Source of the DNA: a virus
Lineage: Duplodnaviria > Caudoviricetes
Length of the DNA: 64,000 nucleotides
Strand: one strand, 5' to 3'
Virus record (IMG/VR): IMGVR_UViG_3300033475_000013
Coordinates: 13,944-77,943 of that record
Part shown: positions 4,824 through 14,613 of the stretch, one piece after another
How the letters are laid out: each line of letters opens with the position of its first letter
Position numbering within the stretch: the stretch's first letter is position 1
Made by a program: the position numbers and the translations under genes
Notes under the pieces: model-generated
What the model was told of the DNA's origin: nothing
Databases searched by the model: none
The model's input: the letters and a program-made list of their open reading frames with translations, nothing else

Positions 4824-4899
4824 CAGGTATTGGGGAAGTCCGGTCGTTCCCGCCACACTTGGAATGTGGAGCTCGTTGGTTCAAATCCAGCATGCCTGA
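4824..4899 (+). tRNA. tRNA-Pro(UGG)
   Basis: Acceptor CAGGTAT/ATGCCTG; anticodon arm CCACA-ctTGGaa-TGTGG; T loop TTCAAAT. Confidence 0.9.
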
Positions 4900-4906
4900 C
4901 TTTTAT

Positions 4907-4979
4907 TGCCGGATGGTGGAATTGGCAACACATCAGACTTTGATTCTGAAAATTACAGGTTCGAGACCTGTTCCGGCAA
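4907..4979 (+). tRNA. tRNA-Gln(UUG)
   Basis: Acceptor TGCCGGA/TCCGGCA; TCAGA-ctTTGat-TCTGA; T loop TTCGAGA. Confidence 0.9.
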
Positions 4980-4981
4980 CT

Positions 4982-5055
4982 GTGATCGTGGGCAAGTGGC
5001 TTAAGCCGCGAGATTGTGGTTCTCGTATTCGCCGGTTCGAATCCGGTCGATCACC
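4982..5055 (+). tRNA. tRNA-His(GUG)
   Basis: Acceptor GTGATCG/CGATCAC, discriminator C; CGAGA-ttGTGgt-TCTCG; T loop TTCGAAT. Confidence 0.9.
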
Positions 5056-5065
5056 AAAAATTAAT

Positions 5066-5145
5066 GCCCCTGTGACATATGCAAACTGGCACAGCTGACG
5101 GTTTTAGACACCGTGTTTTTGAGAGTTCGATTCTCTCCAGGGGTA
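5066..5145 (+). tRNA. Atypical tRNA-Leu(UAG)
   Basis: Acceptor GCCCCTG/CAGGGGT; ACGGT-ttTAGac-ACCGT; T arm GAGAG-TTCGATT-CTCTC; 25-nt D region and 6-nt variable loop. Confidence 0.7.
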
Positions 5146-5149
5146 CAAT

Positions 5150-5223
5150 GGCTGCATGGCGAAACTGGCAGACGCGTCAGACTTAAAATCTGAATTTTAC
5201 GAGTTCGAATCTCGTTGCGGCTA
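5150..5223 (+). tRNA. tRNA-Leu(UAA) with short variable loop
   Basis: Acceptor GGCTGCA/TGCGGCT; TCAGA-ctTAAaa-TCTGA; T arm ACGAG-TTCGAAT-CTCGT; 5-nt variable loop. Confidence 0.85.
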
Positions 5224-6267
5224 CAAAAATTTCTCGATCAATGTTCTGAAAGCGAGTTCGGCTTGCTGTTCAACGACGGCATTTCCTGCCATGCGAAGAA
5301 GGTCTTCTCTAAAGTTGTACCCATTAATTGCATAACCCAGGCTGGATTCAAGACGAGGCTCTTCGAATTCGAATTGATTTGGTCCTTGTCCTGCTGGAAA
5401 AAGACTTGTCTGGGCAATTGATCGCACCGATTCCTCCCATCGCTTCTTTGCATTTCCATGCCGGCCGTGTCCTTCCAGTCGAGACTGGAAGGAGTTGTCC
5501 ATTGTCTGACTTGAACTGGTAATGCTGTTCCTCCTTGTTGAAATTTTGTTTTTCTGTTGGTTGAACTTGATAACGATGTCGTCCACTTTCTCACTGTCTC
5601 CGCCAGATATAACGGAACGGTGTTCTGGTTGGCATTTGACTTCCGATAATCCAAGCACTTCTGCAAGGTCTCCTCGTCTCTTACTCTGTTCAGAGCAGTA
5701 AGTGTCGGCCACGGCAAGGATGAAGAGACGTTTTCTAAGATGTGGCGTGCCCACTTGCTCCGCAGCGAATATGTCCGCTTCAACTTTGTAACCAAGGCTT
5801 GATATTCGTTCTCTGACTTCCTGGTATCCGATATTGAGGTGGTTTGCGACGTTTTCGAAGAAACAGAGAACAGGTCTAACTGCGTCGATTCCATGTTCAA
5901 AGAAGGGGAAGAGATGTCGTGGATCGGCGACTCCGTTCTGTAGCCCGGCTTGTGAAAATGGTTGACAAGGATATCCTCCAGTGAGGATGTGTATTTTTCG
6001 GTAAAACTGTTCGTACGGGAATGTTTTAAGATCAGTCCAGATAGGCACTGGAGCCACCATACCTTGTTCCATTTTCGCTGCCACATTGTAGGCGGCAAAG
6101 GATTCGATTTCCACAATAGCGGCATATTGGAGAATTCTAGCTTGATACATTTTTTCTCCTTGATGTGGGTACCGTAGTGCTGCAATTCCTCGTTCCAGTC
6201 CTCGATCAAGTCCACCTTGTCCGTGGCAAAGGCTGAGTGTAGCGAGTGTTTTTTCGGGATTATCCAC
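5221..6267 (-). CDS. C5-cytosine DNA methyltransferase, catalytic (alpha-like) chain
   Basis: Motif I LSLCHGQGG, IV GGYPCQPFS, VI FFENV, VIII HLRKRLFI, X LRMAGNAVV; GTG start. Confidence 0.9.
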   Translation of the reverse strand: MDNPEKTLATLSLCHGQGGLDRGLERGIAALRYPHQGEKMYQARILQYAAIVEIESFAAYNVAAKMEQGMVAPVPIWTDLKTFPYEQFYRKIHILTGGYPCQPFSQAGLQNGVADPRHLFPFFEHGIDAVRPVLCFFENVANHLNIGYQEVRERISSLGYKVEADIFAAEQVGTPHLRKRLFILAVADTYCSEQSKRRGDLAEVLGLSEVKCQPEHRSVISGGDSEKVDDIVIKFNQQKNKISTRRNSITSSSQTMDNSFQSRLEGHGRHGNAKKRWEESVRSIAQTSLFPAGQGPNQFEFEEPRLESSLGYAINGYNFREDLLRMAGNAVVEQQAELAFRTLIEKFL

Positions 6268-6269
6268 AT
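5238..6269 (-). CDS. Overlapping alternative-frame protein, candidate MTase beta chain (TRD plus motif IX)
   Basis: 343 codons with no stop over the whole MTase gene; WPT/WTT(P) repeats, DWKD, DQLPRQV and LNPAWVMQLMG; ATG start 2 nt after the upstream stop. Confidence 0.75.
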   Translation of the reverse strand: MWIIPKKHSLHSAFATDKVDLIEDWNEELQHYGTHIKEKKCIKLEFSNMPLLWKSNPLPPTMWQRKWNKVWWLQCLSGLILKHSRTNSFTEKYTSSLEDILVNHFHKPGYRTESPIHDISSPSLNMESTQLDLFSVSSKTSQTTSISDTRKSENEYQALVTKLKRTYSLRSKWARHILENVSSSLPWPTLTALNRVRDEETLQKCLDYRKSNANQNTVPLYLAETVRKWTTSLSSSTNRKTKFQQGGTALPVQVRQWTTPSSLDWKDTAGMEMQRSDGRNRCDQLPRQVFFQQDKDQINSNSKSLVLNPAWVMQLMGTTLEKTFFAWQEMPSLNSKPNSLSEH

Positions 6270-12960: not shown

Positions 12961-13818
12961 ATGAGCCAACTCCAGAAATTTGAACAAGCCATTAAAGAGG
13001 CTAAATCTGTTAAAGAACTTTTTACACTTCCTGATGTAAGAGATCGTTTTATTAAAAATTATCAAAGTGTCACCAATCGAGATGATGGTGAGAACAGATT
13101 GGAACAGGAGCGATTCGCTTACCTACAGATCATTGCCGATAAGCCAGACCTGCAAAAAGTTGATAATTTTTTTCATGTCGCAGCTTTGATCTATGCTGGT
13201 ACAACTGGGCTGAGCTTCCGCGACAATAAGCTTTATGTGCGCTCAAATGGTAAGGGAGGACTGAAAGTTGATTCAAGTCCTGCTGGTAAACGTGAAATGT
13301 TCCACATGATGCCAACTGTAAAGGATGTTCCTGAAGGTGTTATTGTGTATATGGGTGATCATTTCGTTCATGATAAACGGAACCATTGTGTGAAAGAACA
13401 CTGGAGCACAGATAAGACAAAAGAACTCAATAACATCGATAACATCAGGGCCACGTATCAAACTATTACTTATAAAGATGGTACAGCAAAAGATGTGGTC
13501 GTTTATAATGATGAGATCAGGAAGGCTATGGCGAAGAGCCCGATGCAGGGAGATAAGTCTACCTGGGCAACCTGGACGGCAGAGATGGCGAAGAAGACAG
13601 CAATGAACAGAGCATTCCGCTTGTACCATCACTATCCTGACAATGTGGTACTGTATGGTCCATCTGTTGAAGCTGAAGATATTTCGCATGAAGATGTTAC
13701 TATCATGCCAGATGCACCGGTTTACTCTACTGATGGAGAAGAGGTTGACACTACTACAGGTGAGGTAATAAATCCTCTTCCTGATGCGAAAGAGTCATCG
13801 CCAAAAAGTTTCATGTAA
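12961..13818 (+). CDS. recT: RecT/Red-beta family single-strand annealing protein
   Basis: AALIYAGTTGLS region and W..W..EMAKKTAMNRAF motif; acidic C-terminal tail with VDTTTGEV. Confidence 0.8.
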   Translation: MSQLQKFEQAIKEAKSVKELFTLPDVRDRFIKNYQSVTNRDDGENRLEQERFAYLQIIADKPDLQKVDNFFHVAALIYAGTTGLSFRDNKLYVRSNGKGGLKVDSSPAGKREMFHMMPTVKDVPEGVIVYMGDHFVHDKRNHCVKEHWSTDKTKELNNIDNIRATYQTITYKDGTAKDVVVYNDEIRKAMAKSPMQGDKSTWATWTAEMAKKTAMNRAFRLYHHYPDNVVLYGPSVEAEDISHEDVTIMPDAPVYSTDGEEVDTTTGEVINPLPDAKESSPKSFM

Positions 13819-13824
13819 AGATAT

Positions 13825-13901
13825 TGGGCATTTGAATAAAATAAAGTTCGCGTAGAGTGATAAAAGCTTTATGAGTGTCGGTGAGAACCCGGCATGCCCT
13901 G
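13825..13901 (+). ncRNA. tRNA-like cloverleaf, non-canonical
   Basis: GGGCAT/ATGCCC acceptor; GAAT/GTTC D stem; 8-bp anticodon-like stem with GATAAAA loop; GTCGG-TGAGAAC-CCGGC T arm. Confidence 0.55.
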
Positions 13902-13905
13902 AAAT

Positions 13906-14171
13906 AAAGTATCCTGCTTGAAGATAAACAACGAGTGCAGATTACAAACTCACTATAGCCAAGGCTAGTAAACTGTTCTAGCAGTTAATGTTTATTGTAG
14001 AGGTAGTTTTATGAATAGATTCATGTAACAGTGTCCAGCGGCAAAGGGATTGGGGCGGCGATGCTCATGAACGTGATACCGTATATAATCTAGGATAGCC
14101 ATTGTTGAGACCTAGATGTAAATGGGCTTGAGATTAAGATTATTCCACTAGAAAATTGGACAGGATATTTT
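13906..14171 (+). ncRNA. Candidate structured non-coding RNA
   Basis: Closing stem AAGTATCCTG/CAGGATATTT; ATAAACA/TGTTTAT junction with three hairpins; ATCTAGG/CCTAGAT hairpin with a possible pseudoknot; no ORF. Confidence 0.5.
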
Positions 14172-14184
14172 TAATTAAAAAATT

Positions 14185-14370
14185 ATGGATGAATTCATCA
14201 AATTAGCTGAAGAGATGCGTGATGCGCAGAAGAATTACTTCAAAGCCAGACGCAATCATGATGACGAAAAATCTCAATACTATCTGGCCTTATCAAAAAG
14301 ACTGGAAGGTGAGTTTGATGCTTTCATTTTGAAGTATAAGAAGGATAAAGAGCAACCTAAATTGTTTTGA
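14185..14370 (+). CDS. Hypothetical protein (61 aa)
   Basis: ORF track; A-rich start context. Confidence 0.7.
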   Translation: MDEFIKLAEEMRDAQKNYFKARRNHDDEKSQYYLALSKRLEGEFDAFILKYKKDKEQPKLF

Positions 14371-14373
14371 TGT

Positions 14374-14613
14374 ATGGAATTAATTGAAGGAATGGGCAAT
14401 GAAACGATGCCGAGTGTTATAAAAGATCCATTCAATAAAAACAAAATTGAAATGGTTGCCATTTACCTAATGAAAAGTATGTTTGATGACAAGTATAATG
14501 CTTCCGGTAAAATAAAGTTTAAAAATGGAAATACCGTTGGAGAGCAGGAATTTACAGGAAAATCAATTGATGACATTATCATTCAAATGAAAGCAGTTCT
14601 TAAAGATTTGTAA
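14374..14613 (+). CDS. Hypothetical protein (79 aa)
   Basis: ORF track; packed. Confidence 0.7.
   Translation: MELIEGMGNETMPSVIKDPFNKNKIEMVAIYLMKSMFDDKYNASGKIKFKNGNTVGEQEFTGKSIDDIIIQMKAVLKDL

What the first reader, a model, noticed from the sequence alone, without database searches (positions are those of the whole stretch)
13825..14171. tRNA-like cloverleaf fused to a ~270-nt structured RNA in a 366-nt gap after recT
Seen: the 366-nt ORF-free gap (13819-14184) in an otherwise tightly packed operon folds into a cloverleaf (13825-13901). It has a 5-bp/7-nt T arm (TGAGAAC loop), a 4-bp D stem lacking the GG motif, an 8-bp anticodon-like stem and a U-U first pair. Right after it is a domain closed by 13907-13916/14161-14170. 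This contains a four-way junction (13924-13995), further hairpins and a possible H-type pseudoknot (loop AGCCATT 14097-14103 with AATGGGCT 14121-14128). Inference: a new phage ncRNA, with the tRNA mimic acting as an RNase P/Z processing signal or as a decoy for anticodon nucleases.
Basis: partly seen in the sequence, partly recalled or inferred. Interest (0 to 1): 0.72.

Follow-up and report, generated by a model that had tools for sequence, protein, structure and literature searches.

The report
tRNA-like gene plus new phage RNA
The gap after recT holds two separate non-coding RNA genes: a conserved tRNA-shaped RNA that cannot be a normal tRNA, and a recently gained 266-nt member of an uncatalogued structured-RNA family found in or beside tRNA gene clusters of many uncultured phages.

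Summary
The interpretation needs splitting in two.

1. **Cloverleaf, 13825-13901.** It has full tRNA geometry, which is very rare by chance: only the 4 real tRNAs and this site match in 128 kb. It folds well only on the + strand (z -3.3). It sits where related phages carry tRNA genes, 7-9 nt after the recT stop. It fails every tRNA detector: no GG or TΨC, no U33, and an 8-bp anticodon stem. Two other strains (metagenomes X2, X3) keep it almost unchanged.

2. **Structured domain, 13906-14171.** Those strains lack 13910-14177, so this domain is a separate, recently gained unit. It belongs to a family I found in more than 50 IMG/VR viral contigs, with conserved blocks and helices P1, P1b, P2, P4 and P5. 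There is strong covariation: 98% of cells paired, 13 pairs changed on both sides, 0 of 500 shuffles as good. A covarying P4-P5 kissing loop is also present.

The family has no Rfam 15 match and none among 50,697 cultured phages. It was single-copy in the five genomes searched, four of them complete, and often lies 6-12 nt after a tRNA or tmRNA. Its function is unknown; the closest analogues are GOLLD and ROOL.

The parts
12961..13818 (+). recT gene (context; upstream neighbour)
   Evidence: Pfam RecT 1.4e-14, PHROG 148; 93 homologues
13825..13901 (+). tRNA-shaped RNA gene (non-canonical). Acceptor 13825-13831/13894-13900; D arm 13834-13849; 8-bp anticodon-like arm 13851-13873 (loop GATAAAA); T arm 13877-13893 (loop TGAGAAC); discriminator 13901.
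   Evidence: Geometry scan. Fold z -3.33 on the + strand only. Conserved in X2 and X3 contigs with 1-3 changes. Relatives have tRNA genes at this position.
13906..14171 (+). Member of the new structured-RNA family (whole element, from the 5' strand of P1 to its 3' strand)
   Evidence: nhmmer blocks b5/bm/b3; alignment A2; covariation
13906..13916 (+). P1 5' strand, pairs with 14161-14171 (11 bp, one G-U)
   Evidence: Six of nine P1 pairs change on both sides across the family
13917..13930 (+). Conserved 5' block CTTGAAGATAAACA. P1b 13917-13919 pairs with 14000-14002; P2 13923-13930 pairs with 13989-13996.
   Evidence: P2 variants in L098, L101 and L102 keep pairing through G-U only.
13931..13970 (+).
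13971..13986 (+). P4 hairpin AACUG-UUCUAG-CAGUU. Loop CUAG at 13978-13981 kisses the P5 loop.
   Evidence: L081 has compensatory GCUU/AAGC.
14003..14143 (+). Family-variable domain, the longest seen.
   Evidence: (no alignable homologues)
14144..14160 (+). P5 hairpin UCCA-CUAGAAAAU-UGGA, directly before the P1 3' strand. Loop CUAG at 14148-14151.
   Evidence: All P5 pairs covary. The kissing loop shows CG->UA and UA->CG together in 6 sequences.
14161..14171 (+). P1 3' strand
13910..14177 (.). 268-nt stretch present here (and in X1) but skipped in a related strain in X2; the X3 contig also passes from 13907 to the start of the 61-aa gene
   Evidence: read laying joint 13909->14178 and the X3 loose end
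14185..14370 (+). 61-aa gene (phrog_15937), downstream neighbour. In L006 it abuts recT directly.

Best explanation
The gap holds two independent non-coding RNA genes on the + strand, probably co-transcribed with the recT operon.

(A) 13825-13901 is a tRNA-derived, tRNA-shaped RNA. It occupies a slot where related phages carry tRNA genes. It keeps all four stems but has lost the elements needed for decoding, so it is kept for its shape. Inferred: that shape is recognised by tRNA end-processing enzymes.

(B) 13906-14171 is a recently acquired member of an uncatalogued phage structured-RNA family. The family has an end-to-end closing helix P1, a conserved P1b/P2/P4 core, two variable expansion sites, and a P5 hairpin whose loop base-pairs with the P4 loop.

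Shown: the structure, the family, its habit of sitting just after tRNA-type genes, and that it is separable from the cloverleaf.

Inferred: cleavage at the 3' end of the upstream tRNA-like unit (RNase Z or RNase E, with RNase P acting on any downstream tRNA) releases a stable trans-acting RNA. Its role would resemble that of the tRNA-island RNAs GOLLD and ROOL, whose functions are also unknown.
For: **Cloverleaf**
- tRNA geometry is unique apart from the four true tRNAs in 128 kb and rare in simulations.
- The fold is strand-specific, z -3.33.
- tRNA genes start 7-9 nt after the recT stop in L020, L009 and L013, and further downstream in L018 and L022.
- X2 and X3 contigs keep it with 1-3 changes, against 8-13% divergence in adjacent recT (Fisher p 0.006-0.03 and <=0.01).
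- The one listed change, 13866 G>A, turns a U-G pair into U-A.

**Element**
- Three conserved blocks are colinear in more than 50 viral loci.
- On the 36-sequence alignment, 98.2% of cells are paired, 13 pairs change on both sides, and 0 of 500 shuffles reach this. Slid controls give 37-48%.
- The kissing loop covaries in 6 sequences.
- Recurrent G-U pairs fit the + strand only.
- A tRNA or tmRNA ends 6-12 nt upstream in L025, L027, L043, L049, L057, L088 and L099/L103/L105; L068 shows the same 3' half, which ARAGORN did not call. A tRNA starts 8 nt downstream in L025 and L043.
- There is one copy in each of the five genomes searched, four of them complete.
- It is absent from all recT relatives and from the X2 and X3 strains, which points to a recent gain.
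Against: - No transcript data: no RNA run holds this sequence.
- The cloverleaf scores below about 14 bits with the Rfam tRNA model and is missed by ARAGORN even at relaxed settings. It could therefore be a decaying pseudogene whose low divergence reflects recombination mosaicism.
- About three quarters of family members have no tRNA directly upstream. Many have an A/T-rich TAATAT-like stretch there instead. So tRNA-coupled processing cannot be the general route to the 5' end.
- All family members were collected with exact-word searches. The invariance of the blocks is therefore partly by construction, and P2 shows no double changes.
- The function is unknown.
Confidence: 0.6

Rival explanations
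1. One fused ncRNA. The cloverleaf and the 270-nt domain are a single functional unit, with the tRNA mimic serving as an obligatory processing handle or as an anticodon-nuclease decoy.
For: Only 4-6 nt separate them. The same spacing to an upstream tRNA or tmRNA recurs in at least 10 family members. Relatives' tRNA-shaped genes in this slot also have abnormal, extended anticodon arms.
Against: X2 and X3 strains carry the cloverleaf alone, packed between recT and the 61-aa gene. Most family members lack any upstream tRNA. The cloverleaf has no homologue beside other family members.
Confidence: 0.15
2. The 268-nt insert is a MITE-like mobile DNA element with terminal inverted repeats. Its 'helices' are transposase-binding repeats rather than RNA structure.
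For: There is a presence/absence polymorphism between close strains. There are inverted repeats at the ends. It occurs in unrelated phages.
Against: - There is one copy in each of the five genomes searched.
- The terminal helix changes sequence while keeping complementarity.
- Internal hairpins P4 and P5 and a loop-loop pairing covary.
- G-U pairs are strand-specific.
- The internal core is more conserved than the ends.
- No TA duplication remains at the empty site in X2.
Confidence: 0.07
3. The cloverleaf is a functionless decaying tRNA pseudogene, and only the 266-nt RNA matters.
For: G18G19, TΨC and U33 are lost and the anticodon stem is 8 bp. No tRNA-model hit. Its T arm and acceptor resemble the phage's own tRNA-Pro, which suggests a duplicate.
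Against: All four stems are intact. Divergence from X2 and X3 is lower than in the neighbouring coding sequence, and the listed substitution preserves pairing. It is retained in compact genomes that lack the element.
Confidence: 0.2
4. The 266-nt RNA is a Y-RNA-like partner of a Ro60 (TROVE) protein.
For: It has an end-to-end closing stem. Some members carry tRNA-elbow-like inserts in the variable region (L061, L065). A TROVE+VWA gene lies 1.7 kb from the element in L024 and elsewhere in the L057 genome. A sub-threshold YrlA hit lies in the L057 tRNA array. The MAG has a TROVE gene on another contig.
Against: The Rfam YrlA and Y_RNA models do not hit the element. Three of four complete genomes with the element lack TROVE. 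No other locus has it nearby. The closing stem is not conserved in sequence, as a Ro-binding site should be.
Confidence: 0.05

Closest known systems
GOLLD and ROOL RNAs (large phage/prophage RNAs near tRNA islands)
   Same: They are phage-encoded and often sit in or beside tRNA islands. tRNAs are sometimes found inside a variable linker. Kissing loops are supported by covariation. Function is unknown (PMC12286853). The new family likewise sits after tRNAs, has variable linkers that sometimes hold tRNA-like pieces, and has a covarying loop-loop pairing.
   Different: It is 157-275 nt rather than about 580-800 nt. It has a different secondary structure and no Rfam model match. Multimer formation was not tested.
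tRNA (Rfam RF00005)
   Same: The cloverleaf has a 7-bp acceptor, a 2-nt link, a 4-bp D stem, a 5-bp T stem with a 7-nt loop abutting the acceptor, G53-C61 and U54/A58 equivalents, and a discriminator. It lies in the position of tRNA genes in related phages.
   Different: It has no G18G19, a UGAGAAC T loop, A in place of U33, an 8-bp anticodon stem, a 3-nt variable region and a U-U first pair. It scores below the tRNA model threshold.
Y RNA / YrlA (tRNA-mimicking Ro60 partners)
   Same: It has a closing stem formed by the two ends and occasional tRNA-like modules. TROVE genes occur in two of the phages.
   Different: There is no model match, no conserved Ro-binding helix, and no consistent TROVE neighbour.
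Stable RNAs C and D (species 1 and 2) of the phage T4 tRNA cluster (from memory, not checked here)
   Same: These are small stable RNAs of unknown function, encoded within a phage tRNA gene cluster and released by tRNA-processing enzymes.
   Different: The new family has no match among 50,697 cultured phage records, so it is not the T4 RNAs.
MITEs / inverted-repeat mobile elements
   Same: There are inverted ends and a presence/absence polymorphism.
   Different: It is single-copy, with covarying internal helices, a pseudoknot and strand-specific G-U pairs.

Membership tests
tRNA (RF00005) | Cloverleaf geometry: 7-bp acceptor, D arm, anticodon arm, and a T arm abutting the acceptor | tested here: met
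tRNA (RF00005) | Scores at or above the Rfam gathering threshold (29 bits), or is called by ARAGORN | tested here: not met
   No tRNA hit at E<=10 in 13600-14400. ARAGORN found nothing with default, -i, -ps80 or -ps85 settings.
tRNA (RF00005) | Universal elbow residues: G18G19 in the D loop and T54-Psi55-C56 in the T loop | tested here: not met
   D loop is AAAATAAA and T loop is TGAGAAC
tRNA (RF00005) | 5-bp anticodon stem, and a 7-nt loop with U33 | tested here: not met
   8-bp stem; loop GATAAAA with A at position 33
New phage tRNA-island RNA family (this report) | Colinear conserved blocks: 5' CTTGAAGATAAACA, middle ACTGTnCTAGCAGTT..TGTTTATTGTAGAG, and 3' TTCCACTAGAA..TGGACA | tested here: met
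   nhmmer on the window gives E 7e-5, 6e-9 and 2e-4, in order
New phage tRNA-island RNA family (this report) | P1, P1b, P2, P4 and P5 helices, plus the P4-P5 loop pairing | tested here: met
   All form in the window sequence. The window's P1 (GTATCCTG/CAGGATAT) is itself a compensatory variant.
GOLLD / ROOL | Match to the Rfam covariance models | tested here: not met
GOLLD / ROOL | Phage-encoded and located near tRNA islands | tested here: met
   PMC12286853
GOLLD / ROOL | Homo-oligomeric RNA-only assembly | not testable with these tools
   Needs native gels, SEC or cryo-EM
YrlA / Y RNA | Model match and a Ro60 (TROVE) gene partner | tested here: not met
   No hit on the element. TROVE is present in 1 of 4 complete genomes and beside 1 of about 80 loci.
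MITE | Multiple copies per genome, sequence-conserved terminal repeats, and a target-site duplication | tested here: not met
   One copy in each of the five genomes searched. The ends covary rather than stay constant. There is no duplication at the X2 empty site.
Self-cleaving ribozymes (HDV-like/theta, hatchet, twister, hammerhead, pistol) | Match to the Rfam models | tested here: not met
   Catalysis itself is not testable here.

The most novel reading that the evidence does not exclude
The 157-275-nt family is a new functional RNA class tied to tRNA biology. It could be a compact tRNA-elbow mimic: P1 acting as an acceptor-like stem, P5 as a T-arm analogue, and the P4 loop as a D-loop analogue. 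It could be a self-assembling RNA like a miniature ROOL or GOLLD. Or it could be a new ribozyme that sets its own or its neighbour's ends. It spreads between unrelated phages by landing just downstream of tRNA-shaped genes. The window's degenerate cloverleaf would then be kept as its landing and processing pad.
Probability: 0.2. Interest if true: 0.9.

Novelty: new variant of a known kind. Interest (0 to 1): 0.72.

Why it matters
Phage tRNA islands are known to hide large RNAs of unknown function (GOLLD, ROOL). This finding adds a much smaller family that is easier to work with. It has a clear secondary structure, a covarying pseudoknot, more than 50 natural variants and two tolerated expansion sites. 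That makes it well suited to structure work and to asking what RNAs in tRNA islands do during infection.

The window itself gives a natural experiment. Near-identical strains exist with and without the element, next to a tRNA-shaped RNA that is conserved yet cannot decode.

Related phages also carry tRNA-shaped genes with abnormal anticodon arms in the same slot. This raises the question of whether phages keep non-decoding tRNA look-alikes for processing or for counter-defence.

Tried and rejected
- **Rfam and tRNA finders.** Rfam at E<=10 on the gap gave only noise, and at gathering thresholds on the window only the four tRNAs. Relaxed ARAGORN found nothing in the gap.
- **Similarity searches with the gap.** blastn against cultured phages gave no match. 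60 related genomes gave only chance hits. The MAG's own genome holds one copy only.
- **Decayed gene.** I looked for a pseudogene of the ORFs that fill this slot in relatives. tblastx found nothing, and every frame has many stops.
- **recT-based locus searches.** A single-protein query in viral contigs and an alignment query in genome contigs both found nothing.
- **Sequencing runs.** No RNA holder was listed, so expression could not be assessed.
- **Promoter and terminator scan.** Counts were at background.
- **Covariance model.** I used block HMMs with nhmmer instead.
- **Earlier findings of this scan.** Nothing by sequence; the word query was malformed.
- **Literature.** The IMG/VR catalogue of 10,006 candidate structured RNAs (PMC10690425) may contain this family, but its supplements are not held. 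Two genome-language-model preprints and the tRNA-mimic preprint do not mention it.
- **Typical family member against cultured phages.** No match.
- **Pattern search in 400 genomes of the MAG's phylum.** Only two 3-mismatch hits that look like chance.
- **Ro60 link.** Not general.
It lies in a region with no alignable homologues, so it is untestable.
- **Direct repeats D1/D2.** 14009-14028 resembles the recT end and the start of the 61-aa gene. I judged this a probable chance match.

Full report
**Setting.** The window is most of a ~78-kb phage contig binned into a 6.85-Mb MAG. Phage contigs with recT homologues have the same size, 77.3-78.2 kb. recT (12961-13818; Pfam RecT) is followed by a 366-nt stretch with stops in all six frames. 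Next comes a 61-aa gene (phrog_15937).

In relatives, the slot between recT and that gene varies:
- empty in L006
- a 101-aa ORF in L004
- an 85-aa ORF in L005
- an 82-aa ORF in another contig
- tRNA genes in several others

**The cloverleaf (13825-13901).** I tested chance directly with a relaxed tRNA-geometry pattern:
- 7-bp acceptor with at most one mismatch
- 2-nt link
- D stem of 3-4 bp
- 1-nt link
- anticodon stem of 5-8 bp with a 7-nt loop
- variable region of 3-5 nt
- T stem of 5 bp with a 7-nt loop, abutting the acceptor

Over both strands of the window it finds only the four true tRNAs and this site. In first-order Markov sequence it finds 2 per 2.56 Mb or 5 per 1.28 Mb. The pattern was widened after the fact to admit this candidate.

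Position agrees with this reading. Rfam's tRNA model, or ARAGORN run allowing introns, finds tRNA genes starting 7-9 nt after the recT stop in L020, L009 and L013, and a little further on in L018 and L022.

Yet the cloverleaf is not a working tRNA. No tRNA hit appears at E<=10, and ARAGORN finds nothing even at 80% thresholds. The D loop has no GG, the T loop is UGAGAAC, position 33 is A, the anticodon stem has 8 bp, and the variable region has 3 nt.

It is nevertheless conserved. A soil-metagenome contig (X2) covers 13754-13909 and a second study's contig (X3) covers 13774-13907. Within 13819-13909 they differ at 1-2 and at most 3 positions. The adjacent recT sequence differs by 8% and 13% (Fisher p 0.006-0.03 and <=0.01). 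The listed change, 13866 G>A, converts a U-G pair into U-A. The T arm and 3' acceptor strand resemble the phage's own tRNA-Pro (shared GCATGCC), which hints at an origin by duplication.

**The 268-nt stretch is a separate unit.** The X2 contig joins 13909 directly to 14178. The X3 contig runs from 13907 straight into the start of the 61-aa gene. A contig identical to the window (X1) spans the right junction. So close strains exist with the cloverleaf alone. None of the recT relatives carries the element. It was therefore probably gained recently in this lineage.

**A family.** X2 also held 13973-14007 in another context. An exact search with part of that stretch found L023, an unrelated 122-kb viral contig, with three colinear matching blocks. 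Searching the left block gave 71 viral loci, about 50 of which have all three blocks in order. The consensus middle block gave 38 stretches, 10 of them new.

Members are 157-275 nt long. The consensus reads, 5' to 3':
- AAAAUCACUUG
- CUUGAAGAUAAACAA
- a variable hairpin region
- UUAUAAACUGUACUAGCAGUUGUGUUUAUUGUAGAGGUAU
- a variable domain
- UAUUCCACUAGAAUUUGGACAAGUGAUUUU

**Structure and covariation.** On a 36-sequence alignment (A2), RNAalifold and my own reading give the helices below, in window coordinates.

| Helix | Window coordinates |
|---|---|
| P1 | 13906-13916 / 14161-14171 |
| P1b | 13917-13919 / 14000-14002 |
| P2 | 13923-13930 / 13989-13996 |
| P3 (variable; two hairpins here) | 13931-13970 |
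| P4 | 13971-13986 |
| Variable domain | 14003-14143 |
| P5 | 14144-14160 |

Counting pairs gives 98.2% of cells paired, 13 pairs with changes on both sides in 45 cells, and 0 of 500 shuffles as good. Partners slid by 1-3 columns pair in only 37-48% of cells.

- **P1** takes at least five sequence forms: UCACUUG/CAAGUGA, UUCUUUG/CAAAGAA, CUCUUUG/CAAAGAG, CUCUCUUG/CAAGAGAG, and the window's GUAUCCUG/CAGGAUAU.
- **P5** covaries at every pair.
- **The P4 and P5 loops pair with each other.** Most members have CUAG with CUAG. Six members have UCAG with CUGA, two concerted double changes.
- **P2 and P1b** vary only through G-U. This, together with an invariant G-U in P2, fits an RNA read from the + strand and not a duplex-DNA repeat.

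Two caveats apply. Members were found by exact words, so block invariance is partly by construction. The shuffle test also ignores relatedness among sequences.

**Context.** The element lies on the same strand as most of its neighbours and has no constant neighbouring gene. It is often inside tRNA arrays:
- A canonical tRNA (Glu, Leu or His) ends 6-12 nt upstream in L025, L027, L043, L049, L057 and L099/L103/L105.
- A predicted phage tmRNA ends 9 nt upstream in L088. L068 has the same 3' half.
- A tRNA starts 8 nt after the element in L025 and L043.

The window's cloverleaf ends 4-6 nt before P1, the same layout. Other members instead have an A/T-rich, TAATAT-like stretch upstream, which may be their own promoter. 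Some variable regions contain tRNA-elbow-like pieces (L061, L065).

The five genomes searched, four of them complete (93-115 kb, two with terminal repeats), each hold one copy. The family has no Rfam 15 match in the window or in six typical members. It has no match in 50,697 cultured phage records. It was not found in 400 genomes of the MAG's phylum.

**What it is and how it may work.**

*Shown:*
- There are two separable RNA genes.
- The second belongs to a real structured-RNA family with a pseudoknot.
- The family prefers the 3' flank of tRNA-type genes.

*Inferred:*
- Both are transcribed with the recT operon.
- tRNA end-processing at the cloverleaf, and at true tRNAs or tmRNA elsewhere, frees the element's 5' end.
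- The element then acts in trans as a stable RNA.

The closest analogues are GOLLD and ROOL. These are phage RNAs near tRNA islands with kissing loops, and tRNAs sometimes sit in the GOLLD linker (PMC12286853). They differ from this family in size, fold and sequence.

A MITE reading is unlikely: the element is single-copy, its internal helices and pseudoknot covary, and its G-U pairs are strand-specific. A Y-RNA reading is weak: TROVE genes occur only in L024 and one of four complete genomes, and there is no YrlA match. The decoy idea is open. It is worth noting that relatives' tRNA-shaped genes in this slot also have extended or interrupted anticodon arms.

**Verdict.** This is not one fused RNA. 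It is a conserved non-decoding tRNA look-alike plus a newly acquired member of an uncatalogued phage RNA family. No expression data could be obtained, and the function is unknown. The family may already sit unnamed in the large IMG/VR candidate list of PMC10690425, which I could not check.

Noticed in passing
L020:3363-3489; L009:3384-3543; L013:1703-1785; L018:1281-1368; L022:3566-3641: Related phages carry tRNA genes right after recT. They have canonical acceptor, D and T arms but abnormal anticodon regions. The inserts are about 16, 20, 50 and 68 nt (L018 folds with an extended anticodon arm), and L022 has a 6-nt anticodon loop. Inserts this short are not group I introns. These may be non-decoding tRNA look-alikes.
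   Followed up: partly
L088:6572-6907: ARAGORN predicts a phage-encoded tmRNA with a tag peptide ending in AA. It ends 9 nt before the structured-RNA element. L068 has the same 3' half.
   Followed up: partly
L024:10283-11695; L106 (genome of L057); L057:378-501: Two of the phages that carry the element encode a Ro60-like TROVE(+VWA) protein. The L057 tRNA array also has a sub-threshold YrlA (Y RNA-like) hit of 35 bits against a cut-off of 69.
   Followed up: partly
window 1-64000 (tRNAs at 4824-5224): The contig looks like a whole ~78-kb phage genome binned into a bacterial MAG rather than a prophage. It has its own tRNA-Pro, Gln, His and Leu cluster. The ORF beside it (5238-6269, - strand) has no Pfam hit, integrase or otherwise, at E<=0.01.
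   Followed up: no
L004:1679-1984; L005:2156-2413; L006:3358-3362: The recT / 61-aa-gene junction is an insertion hot spot in this phage group. Different relatives have unrelated small ORFs, tRNAs or nothing there.
   Followed up: partly
window 13973-14007 (X2 contig of 233 nt): The same soil metagenome that holds the element-free strain also holds the family's middle block in a different sequence context. This is another family member in that community.
   Followed up: no
L034:7074-7098; L040:4450-4474: The family's 5' block is followed by a tRNA-elbow-like piece and a normal tRNA, with no middle or 3' block nearby. This is either a truncated or rearranged copy, or a member with tRNAs inside its variable region.
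   Followed up: no
window 13877-13900 vs 4876-4899: The cloverleaf's T arm and 3' acceptor strand resemble the phage's own tRNA-Pro (about 17 of 23 positions, shared GCATGCC). This suggests the cloverleaf arose by duplication of that gene.
   Followed up: partly
window 14009-14028: A short stretch inside the element (TTATGAATAGATTCATGTAA) resembles both the last codons of recT and the start of the 61-aa gene. This is probably chance.
   Followed up: no
L095:2424-2445: A 54-kb contig binned as a Woesearchaeota MAG contains an exact 22-nt match to the window's middle block but none of the other blocks.
   Followed up: no
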